41,714 bases of DNA from a plasmid, in the NCBI RefSeq assembly GCF_055900595.2, contig NZ_JBVWEU010000004.1; one strand, given 5' to 3'. This document shows, one piece after another, positions 1 to 41,714 of this stretch. Both the position numbers and the translations under genes were made by a program. Numbering within the stretch: position 1 is the stretch's first letter; each line of letters begins with the position of its first letter. The notes beneath the pieces are model-generated. The model was not told the origin of the DNA and did not search any database. It was given only the letters and a program-made list of their open reading frames with translations.

Positions 1-867
1 ATGGGAAAGAGGTCAAGTTCAGTTCTCAATTATCCACTTGTGGATAAAGTGCAGATTTTTCCGGTGGATAAGTATCGCGATAGCTTGCAATTTCTGTTTT
101 CACTGTCATTATGGGTGGGTAAAAATTTACCCATAGGCATTGAAATGGATACTCAAGCACTCTTGCCAGCTACTAAAACGTTTAAAAAACGCGCCAGTAT
201 AAAGCAATCTAACGAATTGACCGAAGCTGCATATTACCTGCCTCTTCAGGCAAAACGTGTGCTGTGGTTATGCCTCATGCAGGCCTATTTTAATGACAGC
301 CAGGAAGATGACTCTGACGTATTGCCGCTCTTCAAAATCAGCGTTTCCGATTACGTCAAATACTTCAATGTCGCTACGTCTGTCGCCAGTCGTGATGTGA
401 AGGCTGGGGTAAATGCTCTGGGCGAATCAACGGTTACCTTTTATCCAAAAGAAGGTGAGTTTGAAGAAGTTAAACGTCCGTGGCTGGCTGAAGCAGGAAT
501 GAAGCGAGGCCGGGGTTCCTGGCAGATTGAATTTAACTACAAGGTCATGCCATTCCTGGTCGGCTTAACCTCCCAGTTCACTACCTATTCTCTCTATGAC
601 TGTGGCCAGCTTAATAGTGTTCGTGTCATCCGGCTTTATGAAAGCCTGTGTCAGTTCCGGAGCACTGGTGTCTGGATCACCACACATGACTGGTTATGTG
701 AAAGGTTTATGCTCCCTGCCTCGCAGAAAAACAATATTGCTGAAATGAAGCGTACCTTCCTGGAACCTGCTCTGAAGAAAATTAATGAGAAGACGCCATT
801 AAAGGTAACATATACCACTGAAGAAGATGGTCGCTTGCTGTTTAATTTTCTTGATAAAAAACAATAG
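1..867 (+). CDS. repA: Rep_3 family iteron-binding replication initiator (RepFIB-like), probably N-terminally partial at window edge
   Basis: 288-aa ORF starting at base 1. Its C-terminal third is about 60% identical to the rep fragment at 8449-8751. It is followed directly by 36-bp iterons. Confidence 0.75.
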   Translation: MGKRSSSVLNYPLVDKVQIFPVDKYRDSLQFLFSLSLWVGKNLPIGIEMDTQALLPATKTFKKRASIKQSNELTEAAYYLPLQAKRVLWLCLMQAYFNDSQEDDSDVLPLFKISVSDYVKYFNVATSVASRDVKAGVNALGESTVTFYPKEGEFEEVKRPWLAEAGMKRGRGSWQIEFNYKVMPFLVGLTSQFTTYSLYDCGQLNSVRVIRLYESLCQFRSTGVWITTHDWLCERFMLPASQKNNIAEMKRTFLEPALKKINEKTPLKVTYTTEEDGRLLFNFLDKKQ

Positions 868-920
868 TCTGTAATTTTTATTTCCTCCCCCCTTAGTTTG
901 TTGCTGACATATGGGGGGAT

Positions 921-1345
921 ACTGAACTTGCTGTGTTTCCCATAGTGCTTGCCTAACTTGACCTGTTTCCCACACTCCCGACCGTCCGAGAAGTTGACCT
1001 GTTTCCCATAGTCCGGGCCGTCCGAGAAGCTGACCTGTTTCCCTTAGTCCGGGCCGTCCGCGAAGTTGACCTGTTCCCCACACTCCCGGCCGCCCGCGAA
1101 GTTGACCTGTTTCCCACAGTCCGGGCCGTCTGCAAAGTTGACCTGTTTCCCACAGTCCCGGCCGCCCGCGAAGTTGACCTGTTTCCCATAATCCGGGCCG
1201 TCCGCGAAGTTGACCTGTTCCCCACACTCCCGGCCGCCCGTGAAGTTGACCTGTTTCCCATAGTCCGGGCCGTCCGCGAAGTTGACCTGTTTCCCATAGT
1301 CCGGAGCGTCCATTAAAGTTGACCTGTTTCCCACAGAGGATGGAA
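921..1345. repeat. Iteron array: eleven 36-bp direct repeats (core TTGACCTGTTTCCCA) plus one degenerate copy
   Basis: TTGACCT recurs at 958, 994, 1030, 1066 and so on to 1319 with 36-bp period. The long minus-strand ORFs here are repeat-translation artefacts. Confidence 0.85.
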
Positions 1346-1728
1346 AACTCTTCTTGTGCTGAGCGTAAGAGCTATCTGCCGGAACGGTTCCTCTTCGCTT
1401 CCTCGCCAGTTCGCTCGCTACGCTCGGTTACATGGCTGCGGCGAGCGCTGATACATAAGGCTCAGCATTGCACTGGTCGTAACTAAAATCAGAATCCTTC
1501 TGAATGACTCTCCTGTCTTGCAAGTTGAATACCTTTCTCAAAGCCCTTTTGTATGAGTTGCTGTTGATGGTCAAAAGTGCGTCTGCGTGTTGCTGCAGTG
1601 TGATTTAGTAGCACGCCCGTCGAGCTTCATCCCCCTTCTGTTGAGAGCGAAATCAAAACAATATGATTTTTTTTCTTGCAACATGACACTTTTTGTTCAA
1701 AATGACAAAAAACGTCATGAGGTGATAA

Positions 1729-2934
1729 ATGGACAATATTGAGCAGTTACGGAAAGTCGCTACACGTGCAGGTAAGCTTCTGACATCTTTGAGCGAAAGT
1801 ATCCGACAGCAAAAAGAGGAATTGAAGCTTACCGAGTTCTATCAGGAATACAGCAAAGCCGCTCTGTATAAGCTGCCTAAGCTCAGTAAAGGCAGTGTTG
1901 AGTATGCTGTGTCCGAAATGGAAGCCGGTGGCTACATTTTTAAAAAGAAACCTTCTGGTAATACGATGAAATACGCGATGACGATTCAGAATGTCATCGA
2001 TCTGTATAACCATCGTAAAGTACCGAAGTACAGGGATCGCTTCGATAAAGCCTTTACGATTTTTGTATGTAATCTTAAAGGTGGTGGTTCCAAGACAGTT
2101 TCTACCGCTTCATTATCACATGCTTTTCGAGCTCATCCTCAGCTTCTGTTCGAAGACCTGCGTATTCTGGCCATCGATTTCGATCCGCAGGCATCTCTGA
2201 CAATGTTCCTGAGCCATGAGAATTCAGTGGGCTTGGTTGAAAATACGGCTGCTCAGGCCATGCTCCAGAACGTGTCTCGTGAAGAATTACTTTCCGATTT
2301 TATAGTACCGTCTATTATCCCTGGTGTTGATGTAATCCCCGCTTCCATTGACGATGCATTCCTTGCTGAAGGCTGGAAGGGATTGTGTGAAGAACATCTG
2401 CCAGGGAAAAATATTCATGCGGTGCTTAAAGAGAACATTATCGACAAGCTCCAGCATGACTACGACTTTATTTTCCTTGATAGTGGTCCTCACCTTGATG
2501 CGTTCCTGAAAAACTGCATTGGGGCGGCAGACCTGATGTTGACCCCTCTTCCACCGGCGACGGTTGATTTTCATTCTTCCCTGAAGTTTGTGGCCAGCCT
2601 CCCTGCCCTCATAGATTCCATCGAAATGGATGGGCACACCTGCAATCTCATCGGTAATGTCGGCTTCATGTCCAAGATCCTGAACAAGTCTGATCACAAA
2701 ATTTGCCATAGTCAGGCCAAAGAGGTTTTCGGTGCCGATATGCTAGACATGGTTCTGCCAAGACTGGATGGTTTCGAACGTTGTGGGGAGACTTTTGACA
2801 CAGTTATTTCAGCAAATCCAGCAACCTATGATGGAAGTACAGAGGCACTAAAAAGCGCAAAATCAGCAGCGGAAGACTTTGCGAAGGCAGTCTTTGATCG
2901 CATCGAGTTCATTCGTACTAACGGAGGTATGTGA
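1729..2934 (+). CDS. parA: Type Ia partition ATPase ParA (P1 ParA/SopA-like)
   Basis: 401 aa with deviant Walker A KGGGSKT. It is followed by parB, whose start overlaps its stop. Confidence 0.9.
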   Translation: MDNIEQLRKVATRAGKLLTSLSESIRQQKEELKLTEFYQEYSKAALYKLPKLSKGSVEYAVSEMEAGGYIFKKKPSGNTMKYAMTIQNVIDLYNHRKVPKYRDRFDKAFTIFVCNLKGGGSKTVSTASLSHAFRAHPQLLFEDLRILAIDFDPQASLTMFLSHENSVGLVENTAAQAMLQNVSREELLSDFIVPSIIPGVDVIPASIDDAFLAEGWKGLCEEHLPGKNIHAVLKENIIDKLQHDYDFIFLDSGPHLDAFLKNCIGAADLMLTPLPPATVDFHSSLKFVASLPALIDSIEMDGHTCNLIGNVGFMSKILNKSDHKICHSQAKEVFGADMLDMVLPRLDGFERCGETFDTVISANPATYDGSTEALKSAKSAAEDFAKAVFDRIEFIRTNGGM

Positions 2935-3908
2935 TGTCGAATGAGAAAAGAAAAACCATCGGCAGACAGTTAAATACCCAGGCGTCAATTGCGGAAATGA
3001 CGGACACCGGTAGAAGCCAGGTATTTACCTTAAAAACCGGCAGGAAGGTAACGTTCAGGTTTGTTCGGGTGCCTGCATCTGAAGTTGAAAGTAAGACCTT
3101 CGTAAACCAGGAAAACAACGGAAGAGATCAACTTGCACTGACCAGGGAATCCCTGAAATCCATTATCCAGACGATTAAGTTTCAGCAGTTCTTTCCCTGT
3201 ATTGGTATTAAGCAAAGTGAAAGGATTGAGATACTGGATGGTTCAAGACGGCGAGCCTCAGCAATTTTTGTCCGTACAGGCCTTGATGTAATGGTTACCG
3301 AAGAGCATTTATCAGCTGATGAAGCTCGCCAACTGGCTAAAGATATCCAGACAGCTAAAGAACATAATCTTCGGGAGATTGGCCTGAGATTGATCGCTCT
3401 TAAAGAGTCCGGATTTAATCAAAAGGAAATTGCTGAACTGGAGGGGTTATCTCAAGCTAAAGTTACCAGGGCGCTGCAGGCGGCGGCCGTACCGCAAGAC
3501 TTGATTTCTCTGTTCCCGGTTCAGTCGGAGCTATCGTTTAGTGACTATAAACTTCTTTTAGAAGTTAATGAAAAACTCAGTGAAAAGGGATTAACGCCTG
3601 AAGAACTCATTCAGTCTGTATCAGCTCAGCTCGATGCAATTTTGAGTGAAGGCGAGCGACCAGAAGACGAACAGAAAGCCAGTATACTGAAGCTGATTTC
3701 TCAGGCATCTCAGGCATTGATAGATCCATCTCCCAAGGAAAAGTCAGTGGTTTCCCCACTCTGGTCTTTTGAAGAAAAGGACAAGTTCGCGCGTAAGCGT
3801 GTGAAAGGGCGTACGCTGACTTATGAGTTTAGCCGTATGTCAAAAGTGATTCAGGATGAACTGGACAAGGCTATCAACGAGGTCCTTGACAGAAATTTGA
3901 GTCAATAA
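2934..3908 (+). CDS. parB: Partition protein ParB (P1-type centromere-binding)
   Basis: 324 aa with the ParB-box-like ILDGSRRRASA motif and an HTH region. Its ATG overlaps the parA TGA. A GTG at 2931 is also in frame. Confidence 0.85.
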   Translation: MSNEKRKTIGRQLNTQASIAEMTDTGRSQVFTLKTGRKVTFRFVRVPASEVESKTFVNQENNGRDQLALTRESLKSIIQTIKFQQFFPCIGIKQSERIEILDGSRRRASAIFVRTGLDVMVTEEHLSADEARQLAKDIQTAKEHNLREIGLRLIALKESGFNQKEIAELEGLSQAKVTRALQAAAVPQDLISLFPVQSELSFSDYKLLLEVNEKLSEKGLTPEELIQSVSAQLDAILSEGERPEDEQKASILKLISQASQALIDPSPKEKSVVSPLWSFEEKDKFARKRVKGRTLTYEFSRMSKVIQDELDKAINEVLDRNLSQ

Positions 3909-3988
3909 TTTCGCCATGGCGATTTCACATCTAACTTATTGTAATTAGGCAGTTTAGGCTGAGAATTTCAAGGTGAAATCGCCAAAGT
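3909..3988. promoter_or_regulatory. parS: P1-type parS centromere
   Basis: Left arm TCGCCA / TGGCGA / ATTTCAC at 3911-3928 and right arm GTGAAAT / TCGCCA at 3973-3984. The arms are inverted around a roughly 45-bp AT-rich spacer, where IHF would be expected to bind. The site lies immediately downstream of parB. Confidence 0.75.
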
Positions 3989-3989
3989 T

Positions 3990-5261
3990 TTACGCCAGTT
4001 TCGCTGAAGGAATATCTGACCATCGTGTCGTATAAGCAGGAGAAAGCATCTCCCGTTTCATCTGCCATTCCGGGGCAATACCCCGCCCCGCAAACCATAC
4101 TTTACCCAGCCCTGAGTTGTTGATCCCGTCCAGAACCTTCATCAGCTCAGCACTGTAAGGGCGTGGCGGGCGTTCGTCGAACAGCTGCAGCTGCGAAACG
4201 CCGGAGCCGGTGAAGTCATTCAGCATAACTCCGGCTTTGGCATACCGGTGCCCATCCCTCCAGATACGCTCCAGAGCCGTTGTAGCGGCTGCAATGATGT
4301 CCCTGGTGTCCTGAGTGGGTGTAAGAAGTTTTTCCGTAGCCACGTTGCCGTAGTAAGGCTCTTTAATGGCGAACGGAGACGTTTTGATGAAAACGGAAAT
4401 ATGCCGGCAATACTGGTGCTCTTTACGCAGTTTTTCAGAGGCCCGCTCTGCGTGCTGACAGATAGCCTGACGGAGTGACTCGTACTCCGTGATCTTCACG
4501 CCAAAACTGCGGCTGCAGACAATTTGCTGTTTCGTCGGAGGGGCTTCCTCAAGCGAAAGGCAGCTTTCCCCGTTCAGTTCCCGTACCGTTCGCTCAAGGA
4601 CCACAGAAAAATTTTTGCGGATGAAGGCCGGGTTCGTCAGGGCGAGATCGAGCGCGGTCTTAATGCCCAGTACATTCAGCTTGCGTGCAATACGGTTACC
4701 CACCCCCCAGATTTCTTCAACCGGCTGCAGTGAAAGCAGTTTCCGCGTTCTCTGCGGATTTCCCCTGGTCAGAGCAAGTACGCCACGAAACTGTTTCCAC
4801 TCTTTTGAGGCCCACTGGGCTGATTTTGCGAGGGTCTTCGTTGGTCCGGCGCCCACGCCAATGGTCAGGTGGGTACAGTCATACACGTGCTGACGCAGCT
4901 GCCGGCCGAAGTCCTCAAGCTCCATACAGTGCTCCACGCCGGTCAAATCGAGGAACATCTCATCAATTGAATACTGTTCCACTCTGGGGGCCAGTTCCTC
5001 CAGGCTGTTCATCACGCGCGCCAACATCGAGGCATAAAGTTCATAGTTACTTGAAAACGCATATATTTTTTCCGGGTATCTTTCGTTTTTTATCTGAAAC
5101 CACGGAGTTTCCATTTTGATCCAGGGCTTCGCCTCGGCACTGCGAGCGATTACATTCCCGTCGTTGTTGCTCAGGACGACTATCGGCTTTCCTTTCAAAT
5201 CCGGGCGGAAAACACGTTCACAGCTGGCATAGAAGCTGTTCACATCGGCCAGGGCAAACAT
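3990..5261 (-). CDS. umuC: Y-family translesion DNA polymerase V catalytic subunit UmuC
   Basis: 423 aa with N-terminal [15 protein letters not shown] and an IMS/UmuC fold signature. Confidence 0.92.
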
Positions 5262-5692
5262 CAGTACATCTCCCTCGGGCGGTGGATGATATGCGTGACG
5301 ACGCCAAAGATATCCAGCTCGTCGGGATCAGGATAAATCGGCGACCAGGAGGCATTCATGGGCTGCAGCGTCAGTCGCGGCGTCAGCAGAAGCCGTTTCA
5401 CCGTAAACTCCCCCTGCATGCTGGCGACAACGATATCGCCGTGCCGCGGCTTTTCAGCACTGTCCACAACCAGCAGATCGCCATTGTACAGACTGCCGTC
5501 GGCCATGCTGTCTCCGCTGGCACGCAGGTAGTACGTCGCGCTCGGATGCCGTATGCAGTAATCATGGAGATCCAGATCGGACTCGACATAGTCAGCAGCA
5601 GGGCTGGGAAAACCGCAGCTGGCCAGATCGGCAAACAATGGATGGGCCTGTGGCGGGAGTTCTTTCCCGGTGCTGAAAAGTTGTAGTTTCAT
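5261..5692 (-). CDS. umuD: UmuD (LexA-like S24 peptidase, Pol V accessory subunit)
   Basis: 143 aa from MKLQLF with an SG...K catalytic pattern. It overlaps umuC by 1 nt. RBS GGAGGAAAG lies upstream. The 270-aa ORF in the track is an upstream extension artefact. Confidence 0.9.
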
Positions 5693-5715
5693 CTTTCCTC
5701 CTGACACTCTAATTT

Positions 5716-5735
5716 TACTGGTTATACATACAGTG
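5716..5735. promoter_or_regulatory. LexA (SOS) box of umuDC: TACTGgttatacataCAGtg
   Basis: CTG-N10-CAG palindrome about 25 bp upstream of the umuD start. Confidence 0.75.
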
Positions 5736-6220
5736 CTCACCGGGAGACCGGTAGAGATCAAGGGGTGAAAGTCCCCGACCATTGAAGGACCAGCAATCCA
5801 CAAGGTCCCCGAGTCATGCGTTGCATACCGCGAGGTATGGGGCGAAGCGTTGACAGGGGTGTTGACAGGCCAGCCATTGAGCCACGAAATGTATATTAAA
5901 TTACCGGGTGCCGACGTTGTACTGTTAACGGAAGGCAACATCATAGGGTGCGATACTGCGAGTGCCACATGGACCCGGCGGGGTCTGAGACCCTGGCATG
6001 TCAATACGATCTCTACGCGGGAACCGGGAGATCTCCCCTCTGACCATCTGCCAGTGTCGGAGACGGCCCGCACCGGGAAGACGAGGAGTCATAGCCGGTG
6101 ATGTACGGAGAGGAGAAGTCGGACTCGCTCATAGTAGCGGCGAAGCAGGCGAACAACCCGAAAGGAGCGGAGTCAGTGGAGCGAAGGAGCGGGGCCAAGG
6201 GGAACGCGGAACAGCCACAC

Positions 6221-7585
6221 ATGCGCCGGACACAGAGCCGGGAAAGCATGTCACAGAGGCTGTCACGCGTGCGGGAAGCTGCGAAGCAGCGGAAGAAAGA
6301 ACGGTTTACAGCATTGTTCCACCTGCTGACAGTCGAAGCACTGGAAGCCGCATTCCTCTCCCTGAGCAGGAAAGCGGCCGCCGGAGTGGATGGCATCAGG
6401 TGGATGGACTACGCCGGAAACATGAAGAACAACATAACAGATCTGCACCGGAGGCTACATTAGGGCAGCTACAGGGCGCAGCCCGGCAGGCGTCACTACA
6501 TCCCAAAAGCGGATGGAAAACAACGCCCGCTCGGCATCGCCTCGCTGGAGGACAAGATCGTCCAGTATGCGCTGGTGAAAATCCTGAACGCAGTCTATGA
6601 AAACGACTTTATGGGGTTCTCATACGGGTTCAGACCCGGGCGAAGCCAGCACGATGCACTGGACGCACTGGCCACAGGGCTGGTACGCACTAACGTAAAC
6701 TGGGTACTGGATGCCGACATCAGTCAGTTCTTCGACAGGGTGAGCCACGAATGGCTGATCAGGTTCACAGAGCATCGGATCGGCGACCGGAGCGTAATCA
6801 GGCTCATACGTAAGTGGCTCACAGCCGGGACGTTGGAGGAGGGTCAATGGCGAGCAACGGAGGAAGGCACCCCACAGGGTGCGGTCATCTCACCGCTGCT
6901 GGCAAACATATACCTCCACTACGTCTTCGATCTGTGGGCGCATCAGTGGCGACGTCGCTATGCCACAGGCAATGTGGTAATGGTCAGATACGCCGATGAC
7001 ATCGTCATCGGGTTCGACAAACGATACGATGCCCGGCGCTTCCGTATAGCCATGCAGCGCAGACTGAGGGAGTTCGGACTCACGGTTCACCCGGAGAAAA
7101 CCCGTCTGATGGAGTTCGGCCGCTTCGCTGCCGAAAACCGTGCCATCAGGGGAAAAGGCAAACCAGAAACGTTCAACTTCCTCGGGTTCACGCACATCAG
7201 CGGGAAAGATCGCAACGGCAGGTTCATGCTGATACGAAAGACCCGCCGGGATCGGATGACGGCAACTCTGAAAGCCATCAAAGACGGTCTGCGAAGGCGC
7301 TGGCATTACTCAATCCCCGAACAGGGAAAATGGCTCAGGAGAGTGGTTCAGGGATACCTGAACTATCACTCGGTACCGGGCAACTTCCCCACCATGCAGA
7401 AGTTCAGGACACACGTAACAAACCTCTGGCGCCGGGCGCTCAGGCGCAGGAGCCAGAAGGATGATACGACCTGGACGAAAGCAAACAAACTGGCAGCCGC
7501 ATGGCTACCAAGGGTTCGGGTTCTTCATCCATGGCCTGTGGAGCGGTTCACCGCCAGACACCCGAGGCAGGAGCCCGGTGCGTAA
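6221..7585 (+). pseudogene. Intron-encoded reverse transcriptase/maturase, interrupted by an in-frame TAG at 6461-6463
   Basis: ORFs 6098-6463 and 6575-7585 are in the same frame. The join reads ...DLHRRLH*GSYRAQPGRRHYIPKADGKQRPLGI..., which is contiguous RT domain 0 to 1. Confidence 0.7.
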
Positions 7586-7606
7586 ATCGCGCACGCCGGG
7601 ATCTGT

Positions 7607-7640
7607 GCGGGGGGTATCCGGTAACGGGTATCCCTACCGC
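7607..7640 (+). ncRNA. Group II intron ribozyme domain V
   Basis: gcggggggtatccg-GTAA-cgggtatccc-ta-ccgc: 14-bp stem, GNRA tetraloop and a 2-nt 3' bulge, 34 nt in total. It lies 22 nt after the IEP stop. Confidence 0.6.
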
Positions 7641-7736
7641 GACATATTTAACAGCGTGACGATAATCCAGATCGCCTGCCGGATAATGGTGCCAACTTAC
7701 TGATTTAGTGTACGATGGTGTCTTTGAGGTGCTCCA

Positions 7737-8012
7737 GTGGCTTCCATCTCCATCAGTTGTCCCTCCTGCTCAGCTACTGAAGGCGTGGTGCGTAACGGTA
7801 AAAGTACTGCCGGACATCAGCGCTATCTCTGCTCTCACTGCCGTAAAACATGGCAGCTACAGTTCACTTACACCGCCTCTCAGCCCGGTACGCACCAGAA
7901 AATCATTGATATGGCCATGAATGGCGTTGGATGCCGGGCAACCGCCCGCATTATGGGCGTTGGCCTCAACACGATTTTACGTCACTTAAAAAACTCAGAC
8001 CGCAGTCGGTAA
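7737..8012 (+). CDS. insA: IS1 InsA
   Basis: 91 aa, [30 protein letters not shown]... Confidence 0.9.
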
Positions 8013-8794: not shown

Positions 8795-9165
8795 TCATGA
8801 AGATGGGCGGATTTCCACACAGCACCGGCGCCCGGTAAGGTGGGCGGATTCCCACACGGCACCGGCGCCCGGCAAGATGGGCGGATTTCCACACAGCACC
8901 GGCGCCCGGTAAGGTGGGCGGATTTCCACACAGCACCGGCGCCCGGCAAGGTGGGCGGATTCCCACACGGCACCGGCGCCCGGCAAGATGGGCGGATTTC
9001 CACACAGCACCGGCGCCCGGTAAGGTGGGCGGATTTCCACACAGCACCGGCGCCCGGCAAGGTGGGCGGATTCCCACACGGCACCGGCGCGCGGCAAGGT
9101 GGGCGGATTTCCACACGGCACCGGCGCCCGGCAAGGTGGGCCGATTCCCATATCGACATGTATGT
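8795..9165. repeat. Iteron array of the truncated replicon: ten 37-bp direct repeats (GGGCGGATTTCCACAC core)
   Basis: GGGCGG recurs at 8805, 8842, 8879 and so on to 9138. The long overlapping ORFs here are artefacts. Confidence 0.85.
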
Positions 9166-34884: not shown

Positions 34885-36572
34885 ATAACGACTGCGTTTG
34901 CGAATGATCCTGTGCCCCAGAAAGATAAAGCCGTCATTAACATGGGTGATTTTAGTCTTATCCATGTTCAGCCTGAGTTTCAGACTGCCTTCGAGCACAC
35001 CCCGACACTCCTCCCTGATGGCTTCCGCCTGTGCTTTGGTGCCTTTGACGATGGGGACAAAATCATCGGCATAGCGGCAGTACGCCACCGCGGGTTTCCA
35101 CTGCCAGTTTTCTCTGACCGCCGTACTTCGGCCCCGTTGGATACTGTTATTCCAGTACCACCGATCTTTTCTGGCTTTCCCGCTCAGGTAGCGCTCATGC
35201 AGGTATTGATCGAACTCATTCAGCATGATGTTCGATAATAGCGGCGATATAACACCGCCCTGTGGCACACCTTCACTGGCCGCCCGAAAGAGACCGACAT
35301 CGATATGTCCCGCCTTGATGGTTTTCCACAGCAGAGTCATGAAACGTGCGTCACTGATCCTGCGGCGTACAGCCTTCATCAGCAGTCGATGATGTACGGT
35401 GTCGAAGTAACTGGACAGGTCGCCTTCAATCACCCAGCGTCCCCGGGTTTCACCGCAGTCTGTGAGCTGTAATTTCACCGTGCGGATCGCGTGGTGGACA
35501 CTGCGCTCAGGCCGGAAGCCATATGAGAGCGTATGAAAATCACTCTCCCATATCGGCTCCATCGCCATCAGCATGGCCCGCTGAACAATACGATCCCGCA
35601 ACGCGGGGATACCCAGTGGTCGCAGTTTGCCGTTGCTTTTAGGGATGTAAACCCGTCTGGCGGGCAAGGGCTGGTAGTGGCCTGAGAGTAATTCATCCCT
35701 GAGGATTTGCAGCTCAACAGCCAGTCTGGCCTGTAGCATTGTTTTGTTCACGCCATCAACGCCGGGGGTATGCGCCCCCTTTGATGAAAGCGTGATCCGC
35801 GCCGCTTCAGCCAGCCATTCTGGTTGTGTTATCAGACGCAGCAGCCGTTGAATCCGTAGGGACGGATCGGTGGCTGCCCATGTGGCAAGCTTGCGTTGCA
35901 TTTCGCTGATTATCAAAGGTCTTCACCTCGTTAGGTCAGTTAATTCACGTCGCAAACACATTCAAACTGCTTCCCTTCGCCATGTAATGGGCTTTCCCCA
36001 TCGCGGACTACTACGGAAGCTCCGCCAGCCAGCGCGTCATCGGAGCCATGCCCCCTTAACATCCGTCGCTGACCTTCCCCGGTTTACCTGCCTGGACTCA
36101 GGCATACTGAGGAGGCTGCCCGTCGCACTCTTTATCCTTGCTTGCCGCAAGTTGGCAGAAGTCAGCAACGCAAGCGTGATAGACGCTGCTGCCCCGGTGT
36201 TTCGCATACATGTCAAAACACCTTCGACCGGCAGTGCTTACGTATCACTGCCAGTTCCTCCTGCACGGCCTGTCAGATCACGTAGGCCGTGGTGACGTTT
36301 TCAACCCACAGAGGCGGATTAACGGGTTCATGTTCTTCAGCCTTTCAGTACTTAACCTTGAGGATCATCTCGGCTTAGTGATCTCGCCTCAATCCCCGTT
36401 GTCAGCGGGTTACATCACCCTGCGGGCATGCCGCAGGTCACTGCCGCTCAGGTTCTCCACCGTCACACCCGGTGGGATTGTTGGGTTTCTCATCGTGAGT
36501 TACCGGTTCAATATTCCAGACAGACTCGCGGTTCATTTAAGCATCCATGCCCGCCCTGAACTCCGGGCACAC
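34885..36572 (-). mobile_element. 5' 1.7 kb of a second, different group II intron, truncated by IS26. Its reverse-transcriptase ORF (about 35910 down to 34885) loses its C-terminus.
   Basis: RT motifs (...YADDFV...). The inferred intron 5' end, GTGTGCCCGG on the minus strand, lies at 36572. Confidence 0.75.
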
Positions 36573-37317
36573 TGTAGGTGATGTCGGTGACCCACACCTG
36601 ATTGGGCTTCACTACAGTAAATTCACGCCGCACGTGATTAGGCGCTATCAGTGACGGTCGTCCCCGGCTCCCGCGTGGCACTTTATAACCATGTATAGCC
36701 TGAATCCTGTTTTTCCTCATGATTTTGGCAACCCGGTTTCTGCTGCACACTTCGCCAATTTCGCGAAGATCGCCATGAACCCTGCGATAACCGTAAACTC
36801 CACCACTCAGCGTATAGGAGTCGCGGATGAGTTCCAGCAGTCGCTGGTTATCCTTTTCTCCGGCAGATACAGGGTTATGGAGCCAGACATAAAATCCGGC
36901 ACGGGCAACCTTAAGGACCCGACACATTGTAACGATCGACCAGATTTCACGGTGATCGTTGATAAAGCGATACTTCAGTCGGGCTCCCTTGCAAAGTACC
37001 GCGCTGCCTTTTTCAGAATATCCCGCTCTTCCTCAGTGCGTTTAAGCTGTGCTTTCAGCCTGAGAATTTCTGTTCTGGCATCCAGTAAATCCTGTGCCTG
37101 CTGTCCACTGTTGTCAGGCTTAACAGCCCGGAGCCATTTATATAGGCTGTGCGCCGACACGCCGAGCCGTTCAGATACTTCAGCAATAGAATAGCCCCGC
37201 TCGGTGATCTGGCGGACGGCCTCTTCCTTAAATTCAGGGGTAAAACGTGATGTGCCCATAGACTCCTCCTATGCTCAAACTATAGGGCAGATTTGTCTAC
37301 GGGCTCGGGGTCACTCC
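36573..37317 (-). mobile_element. 5' part of an IS3-family insertion sequence, interrupted by the group II intron: orfA at 36975-37259 and the orfB N-terminus at 36573-36990
   Basis: OrfA has an HTH (MGTSRFTPEFKEEAVRQI...). OrfB' contains ...KPNQVWVTDITY. Confidence 0.8.
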
Positions 37318-37357
37318 AACTATAGGGCAGATTTGTCTACGGGCTCGGGGTCACTCC
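37277..37357. repeat. Tandem duplication (2 x 40 bp) of the IS3-family terminal IR
   Basis: ACTATAGGGCAGATTTGTCTACGGGCTCGGGGTCACTCCA occurs twice, head-to-tail. Confidence 0.85.
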
Positions 37358-37361
37358 ATTA

Positions 37362-37502: not shown

Positions 37503-37919
37503 TTATTTCACCCAGTCTTCCAGCACCAGGCCCGGGACCCGCGCAAACTCTCTCACATTGTTCGTCACCAGGATGGCGCCCGCCGCGATGGCGTGCCCGG
37601 CAATGGCCGTGTCATTCGGGCCGATCGGCGTCCCGGCTAGGCGCAGCGCCACCCGGATGTCCGTCGTGGCGTCCACCGCGGCGCGGTCCCAGGGCAGGAC
37701 GGCATCGAGGCGCGCGCAGAACGCGTCGACCAGCTGAATATGGCGCGGCGAGGCCTTCGGGCCGGTGGCGCCGAAGCGCATCTCGGCATATGTCACGGCC
37801 GAGACCACGATGCGATCACCGCGCAGCACCGCCTGCTCCAGGCGCTTCAGCACCGCTGCCGGCTGCTCGCGCATGATGAACGAGCAGATGTTAGTATCGA
37901 GCATCCAGGTTTTCTTCAT
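37503..37919 (-). CDS. vapC: PIN-domain toxin VapC
   Basis: 138 aa, MLDTNICSF... with acidic PIN residues. It overlaps vapB by 4 nt. Confidence 0.88.
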   Translation of the reverse strand: MKKTWMLDTNICSFIMREQPAAVLKRLEQAVLRGDRIVVSAVTYAEMRFGATGPKASPRHIQLVDAFCARLDAVLPWDRAAVDATTDIRVALRLAGTPIGPNDTAIAGHAIAAGAILVTNNVREFARVPGLVLEDWVK

Positions 37920-38146
37920 GGCTCAAAACGTCCTTCATCGCTGACCACATCCTCACGCTCCGCCATAAAGTCCGGATCGGCCCTGTCCAGCTGCGCGAAC
38001 GAGCCCCAGGTCGGCCGGACGGGACGCAGAATGATGCTGTCCCCTTCCCGGACGATCTCCAGCTCGCTGACGCCGTCAAAATCCAGGTCCCGGGGCAGAC
38101 GGATGGCGCGGTTATTGCCGTTTTTAAATATCGAAACTGTGCGCAT
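37916..38146 (-). CDS. vapB: VapB antitoxin (AbrB/SpoVT-type)
   Basis: 76 aa, MRTVSIFKNGNNRAIRLPRDL... Inverted repeats ATAGGTGTTACATAT / ATATGTTACACCTAT lie upstream at about 38225-38305. Confidence 0.85.
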   Translation of the reverse strand: MRTVSIFKNGNNRAIRLPRDLDFDGVSELEIVREGDSIILRPVRPTWGSFAQLDRADPDFMAEREDVVSDEGRFEP

Positions 38147-38719
38147 GGTTTTTCCTCATATGCTGAGTGTGCCAGGGAGTATTCCCGCATAGGTGAAGTA
38201 TATGCCTGCAAGCCCGGCTTGTATAGGTGTTACATATGCAGATGGTAGGTATATGCGTATGCTTTGCCTATGCAGATGCCCGGCATATGGATATGTTACA
38301 CCTATGTTGGTTTCTCACTTTTCCCGCTCAGATCCGAAAAAAGGCAGTTCCGGATCTGATTCAGCCCCGCCGGCGCGCAGCGGCCCGGAAACACAAGATG
38401 TAGCGGTGTTTCCAGCTGTCAGTGACCATATATGTTGTGTCCCTCCCCTGCCCCGTGACCGGCCGCTCACCACCCTGAAAGGGCGCTGTGGTTATTCCGT
38501 GTGCGTGGTACACTTCCGGAAACTGTGGAATAACATAAAAGTCGGATCCGGCCAGAGCGGCCGTCAGGTAATTTAATTACGTTGTTATATGGCTGCTTAT
38601 TATTTTAGTATGTGAAAATCACTCTAGTGAAAGTCACTGTCACGACAGAGTGGCACTCATCTGACGATGATTGAGGTGTGGTAAAATTGCACGGCTAACT
38701 ATTCAACTGAGGAAAGGAC

Positions 38720-39070
38720 ATGTTTACTGCATTCAATGAGAGAAATGATTTCAGTTATGCTTTTGAAAAAATCCGTAATGCGATTTCCGCGCCAGGAGAA
38801 AATAATCTTTATGCTGCAACAGAATTAGGTCTTGGCATTCTGCTCCGTAAATACGAGCAGTTTCGCCAGGAACTGGATGCGGCCGGTGAGCTGGGAAACT
38901 GGGAATATGATCTCGATACCTACAATCACTGTATTGCGGTGCTGCAACGTTACTTCACCGGCAATCCATCCGGACTGACAGAACGTGATGCCCGGATTTA
39001 CAGCCATTACCTGCAGACTGAGCACAAAAGGTTTGTGAAACTGGCTGAAGAGCTGGCTGCCGGCCGCTGA
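38720..39070 (+). CDS. Hypothetical soluble protein (116 aa), first gene of an uncharacterised operon
   Basis: RBS GAGGAAAGG. No recognisable motif. Confidence 0.5.
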   Translation: MFTAFNERNDFSYAFEKIRNAISAPGENNLYAATELGLGILLRKYEQFRQELDAAGELGNWEYDLDTYNHCIAVLQRYFTGNPSGLTERDARIYSHYLQTEHKRFVKLAEELAAGR

Positions 39071-39120
39071 CTACGGACAGAGGGCGGGATTTCTCAGGAA
39101 TATAAAGGGGTAAATGATCA

Positions 39121-39864
39121 ATGACTGATATACAGGCCGCAACTGAGAGTATAGTTGCTGCGACATCCCATCCGGTTTCCGTACAGCTGATTAATCAAGG
39201 GGCGGGGATCTGGGGAAACGTGGCAACCGGGCTTATCACTGGCCTGCTTACTGGGGGTATAACACTCACTGGCATCTGGCTGACACATTATTTCACGCTT
39301 AAGCGTGAGAGACAGGCGTCAGAAGATAAAATGAAAAAGGAACTGCATTACATTGCCACCGAGTTGGTATTCATGCTTGAACGGTATGCTGAGGGTTGTT
39401 TCCGGGTTGTGACGGATGACGGCCAGGATGATGATGCCCCCCAGCCTGAGAGAAAAGCTGTCACGAATTACCCTGAACTGAATCTGATCGATGTCTCCGG
39501 TGACTGGCGGACTTTAGAGCCACGTCTTATGTATCGCATCCGTGAACTGCCGGTGCTCCAGGATGAGGCCCACAGGGCAATTGCATATGCCGCCGAATAC
39601 TCCGACCCTCCTTGGCATAAGGACTATTTCAGGGAACGGCAGTATCAGTTCACGCGCTTGGGCATCAACGCTGTCATTCTTGCCGTCCGTCTGCGCAAGG
39701 CAACCGGGATGCCCGAAACACGTCTTACAGGTCATGATGAATGGTCTGCAGTTTCCGTGTTTCGTAAAGTCTGGAGGCGCGAAAGAGCCCTGCGCGCTGC
39801 TGAAGCTACCCGCAACAGGGAGTGGAATCAATTAGTGATACCTGATGGAATGTCAAACCAATGA
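39121..39864 (+). CDS. Hypothetical membrane-anchored protein (247 aa)
   Basis: RBS AAGGGG. An N-terminal hydrophobic segment (IWGNVATGLITGLLTGGITLTGIWLTHYF) is followed by a roughly 180-aa soluble domain. Its stop overlaps the start of the next gene (ATGA). Confidence 0.5.
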   Translation: MTDIQAATESIVAATSHPVSVQLINQGAGIWGNVATGLITGLLTGGITLTGIWLTHYFTLKRERQASEDKMKKELHYIATELVFMLERYAEGCFRVVTDDGQDDDAPQPERKAVTNYPELNLIDVSGDWRTLEPRLMYRIRELPVLQDEAHRAIAYAAEYSDPPWHKDYFRERQYQFTRLGINAVILAVRLRKATGMPETRLTGHDEWSAVSVFRKVWRRERALRAAEATRNREWNQLVIPDGMSNQ

Positions 39865-40637
39865 GCGGCCTCTTATCATATTCTCACCCGCAGCAGCCGG
39901 CGCAAATGCCGGTGGCCATTGACTATCCCGCCGCGCTGGCCCTGCGCCAGATGGCGCTCGTTCAAGATGAACTACCGAAATACCTGCTGGCACCGGAAGT
40001 CAGCGCCCTGCTCCATTATGTGCCCGATTTGCACCGCAAGATGCTGCTGGCAACCCTCTGGAACACCGGCGCACGTATCAACGAGGCGCTGGCGCTGACC
40101 CGGGGGGATTTTTCGCTGGTGCCACCGTATCCGTTCGTGCAGCTGGCCACGCTTAAGCAGCGCACCGAAAAAGCGGCCAGGACAGCCGGCCGAGCTCCCG
40201 CCGGTAGCCAGGCTCATCGTCTGGTTCCGCTTTCCGATCACCACTACGTCAGCCAGCTGCAGATGATGGTGGCCACCCTGAAAATTCCGCTGGAAAGACG
40301 CAACAAGCGTACCGGCAGAACAGAGAAAGCCCGCATCTGGGACATCACCGACCGGACAGTACGGACCTGGATTGGCGAAGCGGTTGAAGCGGCCGCCGTC
40401 GACGGGGTGACATTCTCGGTGCCGGTCACCCCGCATACGTTCCGCCACTCCTACGCGATGCATATGCTGTATGCCGGCATACCACTGAAGGTTTTGCAGA
40501 GCCTGATGGGCCACAAATCGATTAGCTCGACGGAAGTCTATACGAAGGTGTTCGCACTTGATGTTGCTGCGCGGCATCGAGTTCAGTTTCAGATGCCCGA
40601 AGCGGATGCGGTAGCCATGCTGAAAGGGAATATTTAA
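39861..40637 (+). CDS. resD: Tyrosine site-specific recombinase (F-plasmid ResD-like)
   Basis: 258 aa with C-terminal catalytic signature HTFRHSYAMHML...LMGHKSISSTEVYTKV (R/H-x-x-R...H...Y). It sits just upstream of the ori2-like origin, as resD does in F. Confidence 0.75.
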   Translation: MSGLLSYSHPQQPAQMPVAIDYPAALALRQMALVQDELPKYLLAPEVSALLHYVPDLHRKMLLATLWNTGARINEALALTRGDFSLVPPYPFVQLATLKQRTEKAARTAGRAPAGSQAHRLVPLSDHHYVSQLQMMVATLKIPLERRNKRTGRTEKARIWDITDRTVRTWIGEAVEAAAVDGVTFSVPVTPHTFRHSYAMHMLYAGIPLKVLQSLMGHKSISSTEVYTKVFALDVAARHRVQFQMPEADAVAMLKGNI

Positions 40638-40694
40638 GTACTTAGGAGAATGATGCTGGCGAACGTCCTGCTCGCCGGGGAGGTCTGTCAGACG

Positions 40695-40952
40695 TTATCT
40701 GGACCAGCTGACGGGAATATCTGCTCTGTATTCTTCATACTGCTCATAGATCGCATGCTGAAGCATCGTAATACGTTCTGACAACCTGTTGGCGTCCGAC
40801 ATATGCCGCCATTCCCCCTCAATAGTGGTTTTCTGTCCATCCGGGAGATTGAGCGTGATCAATACCTTTGTATCACGAATAATCACCCCGTCAGTGAAAG
40901 AATTAAGACCACTCCTTACGGTATTATCTATCTGTATAGTTTCAAGTTTCAT
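40695..40952 (-). CDS. Hypothetical small protein (85 aa from MKLETI)
   Basis: ORF convergent with resD. No recognisable motif. Confidence 0.35.
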   Translation of the reverse strand: MKLETIQIDNTVRSGLNSFTDGVIIRDTKVLITLNLPDGQKTTIEGEWRHMSDANRLSERITMLQHAIYEQYEEYRADIPVSWSR

Positions 40953-41459
40953 CTTGTTACCTCCTGTTGACCGGATCCCAAGCATAGATATCTGAATTCA
41001 AATTGCCTAGTGAAATGTCTGGATATGCCGCATTTTTCCCCTTATACAGCGAAGCTGGCCAAAGGCCAGCCCGCTTGGATTTATCGCTTTTGCCAGTAAA
41101 TCAGCATGGCAAGGAACAGGATTGTTGCCCCCTGAGAAGCGGTCAGGAAAGTTTCCAGCAATGACATTATCGTAAAACTCCGCATTATTCAGGTGTGTGA
41201 TTCAGGGGCCTTAGTCCCCCTTTTACAGGACGTAGTGTTCTGTCACGACGGAAGCCAGGGTTAATAAAAACGATTCGAATATGTCTGCAGGGACGATAGA
41301 AATCTTCGTGCGGGTTGTCTCGCTGTAGCCGGCTCTGGAGAGCGACTCGGGGGAGGAGTAGTATCTTCCGGCCACGGATATGATCGAGCCAGCAGTGCTC
41401 GCCGCAGTCGAGCGACAGGGCGAAGCCCCGAGTGAGCGAGGAAGCACCAGGGAACAAAA

Positions 41460-41714
41460 CTTATAAATTCTGCTTACGCTCAATGCCTGAAAAATCACCT
41501 CCCCTCGGGGTTATCCACTTATCCACGGGCATATTTTTATAAAGTACTTTTTTATTCTTTTTCTTTATTTTACATCTTTTAGGGAGCCTGAAAGCCGCGT
41601 ACAGTGCGGCCTGAGAGGGGGCCTGTATGGGCAACTGGTAAACATAATATGGGAAATTAATCACGTATCAGTGGGTTTTGTGTCAACAAGCTATGGGATA
41701 TGCATCAACAAGCT
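41460..41714 (+). promoter_or_regulatory. ori2: Start of an F ori2 (RepFIA/repE-type) origin region: two DnaA boxes, an AT-rich stretch, and the first incB-like iterons at the window edge
   Basis: TTATCCACTTATCCACG at 41511-41527. The preceding 100 bp resemble the mini-F sequence upstream of ori2. TCAACAAGCT repeats begin at 41680. Confidence 0.65.

What the first reader, a model, noticed from the sequence alone, without database searches (positions are those of the whole stretch)
38580..40990. Uncharacterised three-gene operon (orf116, TM orf247, tyrosine recombinase) in the slot where F-type plasmids carry ccdAB-resD
In F, the genes directly upstream of ori2 are ccdA-ccdB-resD. Here resD-like is retained, but two unrelated genes replace ccdAB.
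- The first encodes a 116-aa soluble protein.
- The second encodes a 247-aa protein with an N-terminal transmembrane segment and a large cytoplasmic domain.
- Both have strong RBSs, a 50-bp gap between them, and the orf247 stop overlaps the recombinase start (ATGA). This implies co-translation with the resolvase.
Neither product shows a motif I can place.
A small protein plus a membrane-anchored effector, coupled to a plasmid maintenance function and sitting in an addiction-module position, is the architecture of many toxin-antitoxin, abortive-infection and anti-defence pairs.
An imperfect palindromic region at 38600-38680 (GTGAAAATCACTCTAGTGAAAGTCACTGTCACGACAGAGTGGCAC) precedes the operon and could be its operator or the resolution site.
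Basis: partly seen in the sequence, partly recalled or inferred. Interest (0 to 1): 0.6.

Follow-up and report, generated by a model that had tools for sequence, protein, structure and literature searches.

The report
Variable cargo genes in ResD operon
The three genes are real, but they are not one dedicated system: this is the known plasmid dimer-resolution unit (rfsF site plus ResD recombinase), carrying two unrelated, freely exchangeable genes of unknown function, one of which belongs to a family already listed as an untested phage-defence candidate.

Summary
orf116 (38720-39070), orf247 (39121-39864) and a tyrosine recombinase (39861-40637, ATGA overlap) are present, under purifying selection, and identical in about 870 plasmids.

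- **Identity of the unit.** The window is a complete IncR plasmid. The recombinase is a ResD orthologue, 92% identical to F ResD.
- **A shuffled slot.** In 72 rfsF-to-resD loci, 65 from a one-genome-per-species survey of 80 ResD loci, the DNA between rfsF and resD is a mosaic. It holds an orf247 relative (30 of 72), ccdAB, a HEPN-like protein or other genes.
- **No cognate pair.** Small first genes and larger second genes assort independently. ccdAB and an orf247 relative sit together in one operon. Overlap with the resD start occurs with five cargo families.
- **The proteins.** orf247 is an N-terminally membrane-anchored four-helix bundle matching PADLOC candidate PDC-S67. It also occurs alone in defence islands and prophages. 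orf116 is a small soluble four-helix bundle with no informative relatives.

A conflict or defence role for orf247 is plausible but untested. A cognate toxin-antitoxin pair or a ResD cofactor is unlikely.

The parts
38328..38359 (.). Probable rfsF core. It is a 12-bp inverted repeat with an 8-bp spacer (TCAGATCCGAAA-AAAGGCAG-TTCCGGATCTGA).
   Evidence: - Inverted repeat I5, arms 92% complementary.
- The pattern AGATCCG-N(8-16)-CGGATCT occurs once in the window, against 0.01 expected by chance.
- It aligns with R64 nt ~43,620, where PMC8004404 places rfsF.
- It aligns with F nt 45922, where PMC4398462 starts the rfsF/oriV-1/ccdAB/resD block.
- Sequence to its left is unrelated in all eight loci aligned.
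- The crossover point was not tested.
38328..38612 (+). Conserved rfsF / oriV1-like leader module shared with F, R64, ColBM, pKpQIL-like and pLVPK-like plasmids, an ICE and chromosomal islands.
   Evidence: - Alignment A6 shows blocks in fixed spacing: ACACAAGATGTAG...CTATATGTTGTGT, GTACACTTCCGGAAA, AAAGTCGGATCC, GGTAATTTAA, TATATGGCTGCTTATTA.
- The motif GTACACTTCCGGAAA (up to 2 mismatches) lies 0.6-3.7 kb upstream of resD in 65 of 80 species-level loci.
38612..38638 (+). Two direct copies, 15 bp apart, of the palindrome GTGA-N3-TCAC. Operator-like; the binding protein is inferred, not shown.
   Evidence: - Direct repeat D1.
- The pattern gives 8 matches with up to 1 mismatch, against 2.5 expected.
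- Similar GTGAAAtTCA repeats are present in loci whose first gene is ccdA or another gene, so they are not specific to orf116.
38720..39070 (+). orf116, a small soluble, slightly acidic four-helix-bundle protein. It is the first cargo cassette.
   Evidence: - ORF.
- AlphaFold pLDDT 94.9, four helices.
- No Pfam, NCBIfam or PADLOC family.
- dN/dS 0.16-0.23.
- Present in 1607 PLSDB records.
39121..39864 (+). orf247, the second cargo cassette. It has an N-terminal Gly/Thr-rich membrane helix plus a cytoplasmic four-helix bundle, and belongs to PADLOC candidate family PDC-S67.
   Evidence: - PADLOC PDC-S67 at E 3.6e-45.
- Hydrophobic segment at residues 34-55, followed by KRER.
- AlphaFold pLDDT 82.8.
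- 958 representative clusters in the family.
- Present in 1990 PLSDB records, split into at least 99% and below 60% identity classes.
39861..40637 (+). resD, a tyrosine recombinase and orthologue of the F plasmid ResD (D protein).
   Evidence: - 92% identity to F ResD.
- Pfam Phage_integrase at E 2.3e-18.
- HxxR and Y motifs are visible in the sequence.
- dN/dS 0.04-0.08.
- Called resD in the IncR literature by annotation only (PMC7707992, PMC9412624).
40695..40952 (-). Convergent 85-aa gene of unknown function. It is annotated WP_000764642.1 and the start at 40952 has an AGGAGG Shine-Dalgarno. It is not part of the operon and is absent from F.
   Evidence: - ORF.
- Annotated in L001, L011 and L106.
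- No family except phrog_31850.
- It falls in a gap relative to F.
37503..38146 (-). vapBC (called vagCD in IncR papers), a toxin-antitoxin pair immediately left of rfsF. Context only.
   Evidence: Pfam PIN and MazE_antitoxin; annotation in L001.

Best explanation
**What the unit is.** This is the IncR copy of the F-type rfsF-ResD multimer-resolution unit.

**How it is laid out.** A single rfsF site at 38328-38359 sits beside a conserved 280-bp leader. The leader probably holds the promoter and an operator. One transcript then carries cargo genes followed by resD. resD has no clear ribosome-binding site of its own, so it is probably translated by coupling to whichever gene lies upstream.

**How it works.** ResD resolves plasmid dimers at rfsF. 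This is inferred from 92% identity to the F enzyme.

**Why the cargo varies.** The stretch between the leader and about codon 13-16 of resD is a shuffled cargo slot. Homologous recombination in the two conserved flanks, and site-specific exchange at rfsF to the left, move cassettes between plasmids, ICEs and chromosomal islands.

**What the two cargo genes are.** orf116 and orf247 are independent cassettes, not a dedicated pair.
- orf247 is a single-pass inner-membrane protein with a small-residue-rich, glycine-zipper-like helix and a non-enzymatic cytoplasmic helical bundle.
- orf247 most likely serves the mobile element in conflict with phages or rival elements. My guess at the mechanism is oligomerisation in the membrane; this is inferred, not shown.
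- The role of orf116 is open.

**Confidence by layer.** Architecture about 0.9. A conflict role for orf247 about 0.35.
For: **Architecture**
- ResD is 92% identical to F ResD.
- The leader is homologous to F, R64 and six other contexts.
- The leader motif lies upstream of resD in 65 of 80 species-level loci, at distances of 0.6-3.7 kb.
- The cargo is a mosaic of about 20 gene families.
- The three genes have discordant divergence in the same locus pairs. For window versus L015, orf116 dS is 0.07, orf247 is 37% identical at the amino-acid level, and resD dS is 1.3.
- DNA homology to L015 ends in the 50-bp gap between orf116 and orf247.
- Start-stop overlap with resD is seen for five cargo families.

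**Conflict role**
- PADLOC PDC-S67 match.
- Other occupants of the slot are ccdAB, a HEPN-like protein with an RNDLVH motif, and a protein with an RHH N-terminus.
- Distant orf247 relatives lie in a Gabija/AbiC island (L104), in a prophage as an opposite-strand insert near AbiEii (L097), and near PIN-MazE (L103).
- Kosakonia and Salmonella loci are flanked by Cap4-nuclease, EcoRII, GmrSD and RES genes.
Against: - No function was measured, and PDC-S67 is only a candidate with no published test.
- Recombinases and their neighbours are themselves common in defence islands, so the association could be hitch-hiking.
- The fold is a generic helical bundle with no catalytic constellation. Across the wide family only W129 is invariant, and L86, C93, P118, G181, L191 and R192 are nearly so.
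- The hydrophobic segment is only moderately hydrophobic (Kyte-Doolittle 1.54) and is modelled with low confidence.
- The promoter and the ResD-operator link are inferred. The simple promoter scan found no plus-strand site upstream of orf116.
Confidence: 0.5

Rival explanations
1. orf116 and orf247 form a cognate toxin-antitoxin or abortive-infection pair, with a small neutraliser and a membrane toxin. This pair would replace ccdAB as the addiction module of the plasmid.
For: - Same position as ccdAB in F.
- The small-plus-larger gene layout recurs. Examples are a 126-aa gene 10 nt before a distant orf247 relative in a prophage, and many first-gene/second-gene pairs in the survey.
- A membrane-anchored protein could be toxic.
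Against: - The partners assort independently. orf116 occurs with a 35%-identical orf247 allele and with an unrelated 202-aa protein.
- orf247 relatives follow at least six unrelated small genes.
- ccdAB and an orf247 relative sit in the same operon in L106.
- orf247 relatives occur with no small partner, after a Rep3 gene, after LacI and in a Gabija island.
- orf116 has no HTH or RHH DNA-binding fold.
- Neither protein matches a toxin or antitoxin family.
Confidence: 0.12
2. orf247, with or without orf116, is an accessory factor of ResD recombination. For example, it could tether or regulate the resolvase at the membrane.
For: - Stop-start overlap with resD.
- orf247 relatives are adjacent to ResD-type recombinases even at 35% and 43% identity, and in either gene order (L101, L102).
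- 30 of 72 rfsF-to-resD loci carry an orf247 relative.
Against: - More than half of ResD loci lack an orf247 relative, including F, R64, pKpQIL-type and pLVPK-type plasmids.
- From my own knowledge of the older literature, which I could not read here, F ResD resolves at rfsF without any such gene.
- Overlap with resD is generic to the slot.
- ResD is 85-97% conserved, while orf247 alleles differ by 40-65%. That pattern is not expected of an interacting partner.
- Family members occur far from any recombinase.
Confidence: 0.1
3. The two genes are neutral or selfish passengers of a recombination hot spot, with no benefit to the plasmid. Alternatively, orf116 is an anti-defence or establishment factor unrelated to orf247.
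For: - The slot is highly mosaic.
- No informative homology or fold match for either protein.
- orf116 is small and acidic, like many anti-restriction proteins. That comparison is my own recollection, not a test.
Against: - Purifying selection on both genes.
- The orf247 family spans 958 clusters at 50% identity with conserved length and motifs.
- Both genes are retained at at least 99% identity in about 900 plasmids from several genera.
Confidence: 0.15

Closest known systems
F plasmid rfsF-ccdA-ccdB-resD operon (ResD / D protein multimer resolution)
   Same: - Recombinase 92% identical.
- Homologous rfsF/oriV1-like leader upstream.
- Homologous origin-proximal spacer downstream.
- Cargo genes abut the resD start.
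   Different: - The cargo is orf116 plus orf247 instead of ccdAB.
- The replicon is IncR RepB rather than RepE.
- An extra convergent 85-aa gene follows resD.
PADLOC phage-defence candidate PDC-S67 (single-gene candidate, untested)
   Same: orf247 residues 47-236 match 190 of 203 profile positions at E 3.6e-45. Distant family members sit in defence islands and prophages.
   Different: Here the gene is embedded in, and translationally abutted to, a plasmid resolution operon rather than standing alone. No anti-phage activity has been reported for the family.
[quoted passage not shown]
   Same: Same rfsF inverted repeat and leader. rfsF marks a mosaic junction there too (PMC8004404), as it does in IncR (PMC9412624).
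   Different: The R64 cargo is a single 137-aa gene unrelated to orf116 or orf247. The described exchange concerns DNA to the left of rfsF, not the slot between rfsF and resD.
Type II toxin-antitoxin modules (ccdAB; the neighbouring vapBC)
   Same: Two-gene layout in a plasmid-maintenance neighbourhood, and the same slot as ccdAB.
   Different: - No homology to any toxin or antitoxin family.
- No DNA-binding fold in the small protein.
- No co-variation of the partners.
- An orf247 relative co-occurs with ccdAB in one operon.

Membership tests
F-type ResD/rfsF multimer-resolution system | Tyrosine recombinase orthologous to F ResD with intact catalytic motifs | tested here: met
   92% identity over 244 residues. 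Pfam Phage_integrase at E 2.3e-18. R72, H192-x-x-R195, H218 and Y227 can be read in the translation.
F-type ResD/rfsF multimer-resolution system | rfsF site in cis, upstream of the operon | tested here: met
   The unique inverted repeat at 38328-38359 and the 280-bp leader are homologous to F nt 45922 onward and to R64 nt ~43,620 (PMC4398462, PMC8004404, PMC9412624).
F-type ResD/rfsF multimer-resolution system | ResD-dependent resolution of dimers at rfsF | not testable with these tools
   Needs a two-site resolution assay.
PADLOC PDC-S67 | Significant match to the family profile over most of its length | tested here: met
   E 3.6e-45, profile positions 6-195 of 203.
PADLOC PDC-S67 | Occurrence among defence genes | tested here: inconclusive
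   Some relatives lie beside Gabija-like, AbiC, AbiEii, Cap4-nuclease, EcoRII and GmrSD genes. Others follow Rep3 or LacI. Only about ten contexts were sampled.
PADLOC PDC-S67 | Protection against phage | not testable with these tools
   No paper in the library mentions PDC-S67.
Type II toxin-antitoxin pair | Homology of either protein to a known toxin or antitoxin family | tested here: not met
   No significant Pfam, NCBIfam or PADLOC toxin or antitoxin hit. No PDB sequence relatives.
Type II toxin-antitoxin pair | Cognate partners inherited together | tested here: not met
   Independent assortment of first and second genes across 72 loci, with discordant divergence between them. orf247 relatives occur without a small partner.
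Type II toxin-antitoxin pair | Toxicity of one protein neutralised by the other | not testable with these tools
   Requires expression experiments.
Tyrosine recombinase with a core-binding domain supplied in trans (idea raised by a weak Phage_int_SAM_4 hit of orf116) | orf116 resembles the integrase N-terminal SAM-like domain | tested here: not met
Holin | Match to a holin family, and a lysis-cassette context | tested here: not met
   Only phrog_4237 at E 0.013 over the membrane segment. There are no lysis genes nearby.

The most novel reading that the evidence does not exclude
The conserved layout is rfsF and leader, then a growth-arresting cargo, then resD. On this reading it is a checkpoint that senses the plasmid's resolution state.
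- The cargo would be CcdB, a HEPN RNase or a membrane-acting orf247-type protein.
- It would be expressed from a promoter that ResD represses at or near rfsF.
- Unresolved multimers, or loss of ResD or of the plasmid, would then trigger arrest.
- orf247 would be a new pore-forming or membrane-perturbing effector wired to dimer resolution.

The evidence does not exclude this, but nothing here tests regulation or toxicity.
Probability: 0.08. Interest if true: 0.75.

Novelty: new variant of a known kind. Interest (0 to 1): 0.4.

Why it matters
**Reach.** orf116 relatives are found in about 1,600 sequenced plasmids and orf247 relatives in about 2,000. Many of these are IncR and IncF multidrug-resistance plasmids of E. 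coli, Klebsiella and Salmonella, yet neither gene has a name or a tested function.

**What this analysis changes.** The genes sit in a shuffled cargo slot inside the dimer-resolution operon, alongside ccdAB and HEPN-type genes. That gives a concrete, cheap set of experiments on phage plating, exclusion, stability and membrane integrity. It also corrects the likely position of rfsF in IncR backbones.

**If orf247 proves protective or addictive.** It would validate a large candidate family of 958 clusters. It would also add a maintenance factor to clinically important plasmids.

**If orf247 has no phenotype.** The finding is an ordinary mosaic region.

Tried and rejected
2. **Fold-based function.** Uninformative for both proteins.
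   - BFVD gave one uncharacterised phage protein.
   - PDB profile searches found nothing.
   - The afdb50 library was unavailable.
3. **Wider census of distant orf247 relatives in metagenomes.** Both alignments were too divergent for pattern design. I replaced this with eight single look-ups.
4. **Phage genomes.** No nucleotide match, although PHROGs holds one family for each protein.
5. **A second recombination site at the resD junction, to test integron-like cassettes.** No repeat of the rfsF arms was found there. Cargo exchange is better explained by homologous recombination in the conserved flanks.
6. **Literature.** Nothing was found on PDC-S67 or on the three RefSeq protein accessions.
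7. **Promoter scan.** It found no plus-strand consensus promoter upstream of orf116, so the promoter is inferred only from the conserved AT-rich block.
Full report
**1. Observation.**
The ORF list and the raw sequence confirm the gene layout.
- orf116 lies at 38720-39070 and orf247 at 39121-39864, with a 50-bp gap between them.
- A 258-aa tyrosine recombinase lies at 39861-40637. Its ATG overlaps the orf247 stop, giving ATGA.
- A fourth, convergent small gene lies at 40695-40952 on the minus strand. It has an AGGAGG Shine-Dalgarno.

The genes are real.
- The 2.4-kb stretch is at least 99% identical in 869 plasmid records from Escherichia, Salmonella, Klebsiella and others, always annotated "hypothetical protein".
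- dN/dS is 0.16-0.23 for orf116, 0.19-0.29 for orf247 and 0.04-0.08 for the recombinase.

**2. What the window is.**
The window is a circularly permuted, probably complete, IncR plasmid.
- It starts at the ATG of a Rep3-family RepB (1-867).
- This is followed by 10.5 copies of the 36-bp IncR iteron (958-1336), then parA, parB and umuC.
- vapBC, called vagCD in IncR papers, lies at 37503-38146 on the minus strand.

IncR papers list the backbone as vagCD, resD, repB, parAB, umuCD and retA. They call the recombinase resD from annotation alone and do not name the two upstream genes (PMC7707992, PMC12310702, PMC9412624).

**3. The recombinase and the comparison with F.**
- F carries pifC, ccdA, ccdB, resD and repE in that order.
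- The window recombinase is 92% identical to F ResD over residues 12-255.
- Window 41100-41560, which includes the DnaA-box pair TTATCCACTTATCCAC at 41511-41526, is homologous to the F resD-repE spacer. The 85-aa gene falls in a gap relative to F.

**4. Where rfsF is.**
The 570 bp between vapB and orf116 align with the F pifC-ccdA spacer. They also align with the equivalent region of six other contexts: pKpQIL-like, ColBM and pLVPK-like plasmids, a Kosakonia/Enterobacter chromosomal island, a Salmonella ICE, and Pectobacterium.

Conservation begins abruptly at an inverted repeat at window 38328-38359. Its two 12-bp arms are 92% complementary and are separated by an 8-bp spacer. The pattern is unique in the window, against 0.01 expected by chance.

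Three lines place rfsF here.
- It aligns with R64 nt ~43,620, where PMC8004404 places rfsF.
- It aligns with F nt 45922, where PMC4398462 begins the block "two rfsF sites, oriV-1, ccdAB, resD".
- PMC9412624 likewise places rfsF between vagCD and resD in IncR plasmids.

It consists of two GTGA-N3-TCAC palindromes 15 bp apart at 38612-38638, about 250 bp downstream of rfsF. Similar repeats are present in loci whose first gene is ccdA or another gene. They therefore belong to the shared leader and look like an operator.

That ResD binds this operator is my inference. It rests on older literature on the F D protein as a repressor, which I could not read here.

**5. The cargo between rfsF and resD is a mosaic.**
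ResD is 85-97% identical in every context examined, but the gene in front of it is not conserved.

| Context | Gene(s) in front of resD |
|---|---|
| Window, Kosakonia island, Salmonella ICE | orf247 relatives, 52-58% identical |
| ColBM plasmids | 229-aa orf247 allele, 35% identical |
| pLVPK-type plasmids | unrelated 273-aa protein |
| pKP048 and pKpQIL types | unrelated 334-338-aa protein with a C-terminal anchor |
| F | ccdAB |

I then scanned one genome per species and recovered 80 ResD loci.
- In 65 of them the leader motif GTACACTTCCGGAAA (up to 2 mismatches) lies 0.6-3.7 kb upstream of resD.
- With seven reference loci added, 72 loci could be analysed. Clustering the ORFs in between gave about 20 families.

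The main families were as follows.
- The orf247 family, in 30 of 72 loci.
- The C-terminally anchored 334-aa family, in 11 loci.
- ccdAB, in about 8 loci.
- A 273-aa family, in 7 loci. It has a weak HEPN_RiboL-PSP match (E 8e-4) and an RNDLVH motif.
- A 320-aa family with a FitA-like RHH N-terminus.
- Several small first genes. These include orf116 in 7 loci, C3 in 10, C9 in 7, C16 in 4, and C15 in 4 (C15 is DUF3223/HamC-like).

The ORF calling was crude, and a few antisense ORFs displaced real genes. The counts are therefore approximate.

**6. orf116 and orf247 are not a cognate pair.**
- In the distant orf247 loci, the small upstream proteins (102, 104 and 119 aa) are unrelated to orf116.
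- orf116 at 96% identity sits in front of an orf247 allele that is only 35% identical. DNA homology ends inside the 50-bp gap.
- orf116 also precedes an unrelated 202-aa gene in L030.
- C9, C3 and C16 each pair with two or three different second genes.
- Divergence is discordant within a single locus pair. For window versus L015, orf116 dS is 0.07, resD dS is 1.3, and orf247 is 37% identical.
- In PLSDB, orf116 is in 1607 records. orf247 relatives are in 1990, split into 917 at 99% identity or above and 1041 below 60%, with almost nothing in between.
- In the IncR plasmid L106 the operon reads ccdA-ccdB-orf247-like (50% identical)-resD. ccdAB and the orf247 family are therefore not alternatives.
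- The 4-nt or 1-nt overlap with the resD start occurs with five cargo families: C0, C7, C8, C13 and C14. It is a property of the slot, probably because resD lacks a good ribosome-binding site of its own.

**7. What the two proteins look like.**
orf116:
- It folds as a confident up-down four-helix bundle, pLDDT 94.9.
- A weak Pfam hit to the integrase SAM-like domain (E 0.024) is not supported.

orf247:
- It has a hydrophobic, Gly/Thr-rich segment, VATGLITGLLTGGITLTGIWLTH. Small residues recur every four positions, and KRER follows it. This suggests a short N-terminus outside the cell and a cytoplasmic C-terminal domain.
- The model (pLDDT 82.8, core above 90) shows the membrane helix continuing into a four-helix bundle.
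- No enzyme-like constellation is conserved. Across a wide alignment only W129 is invariant, while L86, C93, P118, G181, L191 and R192 are nearly so.
- The one positive assignment is PADLOC PDC-S67 at E 3.6e-45. This is a candidate defence family with no literature in the library.

**8. The wider orf247 family.**
A profile search finds 958 clusters at 50% identity with E at or below 1e-3. Six of the eight further look-ups gave usable context, and it is all on mobile elements or in conflict-gene neighbourhoods.
- A prophage, as an opposite-strand two-gene insert near AbiEii (L097).
- Directly after a Rep3 initiator gene (L099).
- After, or overlapping, ResD-type recombinases that are 43% identical to ResD (L101, L102).
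- Between Gabija-like genes and putAbiC (L104).
- Next to a PIN-MazE pair (L103).

The closer chromosomal and ICE loci are flanked by Cap4-nuclease, EcoRII, GmrSD, RES and Mrr genes.

The protein therefore functions independently of ResD and of orf116. The company it keeps is consistent with, but does not prove, a defence or exclusion role.

**9. Best explanation and rivals.**
The best-supported reading is a known resolution unit (rfsF, leader and ResD) whose 5' half is a shuffled cargo slot.
- The two conserved flanks allow cassette replacement by homologous recombination.
- rfsF itself mediates exchange of DNA to its left. This is seen in IncI1 and IncR plasmids (PMC8004404, PMC9412624).
- It is also seen in L001. 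There a 6.2-kb block with an S-4TM effector and AAA ATPases is flanked by a hybrid rfsF site and a complete one.

orf247 is most likely a membrane-acting conflict factor, and the role of orf116 is open. The rivals each conflict with specific results listed above. They are a cognate TA pair (0.12), a ResD cofactor (0.10), and a passenger or anti-defence role (0.15).

**10. Verdict.**
The slot and the conflict-gene flavour hold. The "pair", the "replacement of ccdAB", the "coupling implies a functional link" and the "resolution site" claims do not.
- It is a new variant of a known kind of operon.
- Interest is moderate. The genes are very common in resistance plasmids and are cheap to test, but nothing about the architecture would greatly surprise a plasmid biologist.

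Noticed in passing
L001 (NZ_CP032991) 1473-7821, compared with window 38290-38400: In an IncFII/IncN hybrid plasmid, a 6.2-kb block separates vapBC from orf116. The block holds an AAA ATPase, two hypothetical genes, an S-4TM putative pore-forming effector and one more gene. On its left is a hybrid site with the rfsF left arm and spacer but a different right arm. On its right is a complete rfsF. This looks like capture of a conflict-gene block by recombination at rfsF.
   Followed up: partly
window 40695-40952 (-): A convergent 85-aa gene (WP_000764642.1) with a strong AGGAGG Shine-Dalgarno lies directly downstream of resD. It is conserved in IncR and pKP048-type plasmids and absent from F. It has no family apart from phrog_31850, whose function is unknown.
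   Followed up: partly
L106 (NZ_CP127520) 2174-4319: In an IncR Klebsiella plasmid the operon reads ccdA-ccdB-227-aa orf247 relative (50% identical)-resD. A RES-family toxin gene lies just upstream of rfsF.
   Followed up: partly
L016 (pLVPK-like virulence plasmid) 2641-3462; also L033, L041, L058, L062, L068: The gene overlapping resD in these loci encodes a 267-301-aa protein with a weak HEPN_RiboL-PSP match (E 8e-4) and an RNDLVH motif. This makes it a probable HEPN RNase in the same slot as orf247.
   Followed up: partly
L013 (pKP048) 2262-3266; L014 2236-3252: pKP048- and pKpQIL-type plasmids carry a 334-338-aa protein with a C-terminal hydrophobic anchor about 180-200 bp upstream of resD. 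It is preceded by 131-aa and 104-aa genes and, in L014, by ccdAB. No family match was found.
   Followed up: no
window 1-1336 and 41100-41714: The window begins exactly at the repB ATG. The distance from resD to the window end equals the resD-repB spacer of other IncR plasmids. The window is therefore probably a complete 41.7-kb circular IncR plasmid. It has 36-bp iterons x10.5 at 958-1336.
   Followed up: partly
window 8800-9150: A second tandem array of 37 bp x 9.5 copies, 92% matching, overlaps ORFs on both strands. Its function was not examined.
   Followed up: no
window 37274-37358: A 40-bp unit is repeated 2.1 times at 97% identity. It lies next to the truncated IS3-family element at 36508-37259.
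   Followed up: no
L101 3771-5702: In a distant lineage, a ResD-type recombinase (43% identical to ResD) and an orf247 relative (about 35% identical) are neighbours in the reverse order, recombinase first. A serine/threonine kinase gene lies nearby.
   Followed up: partly
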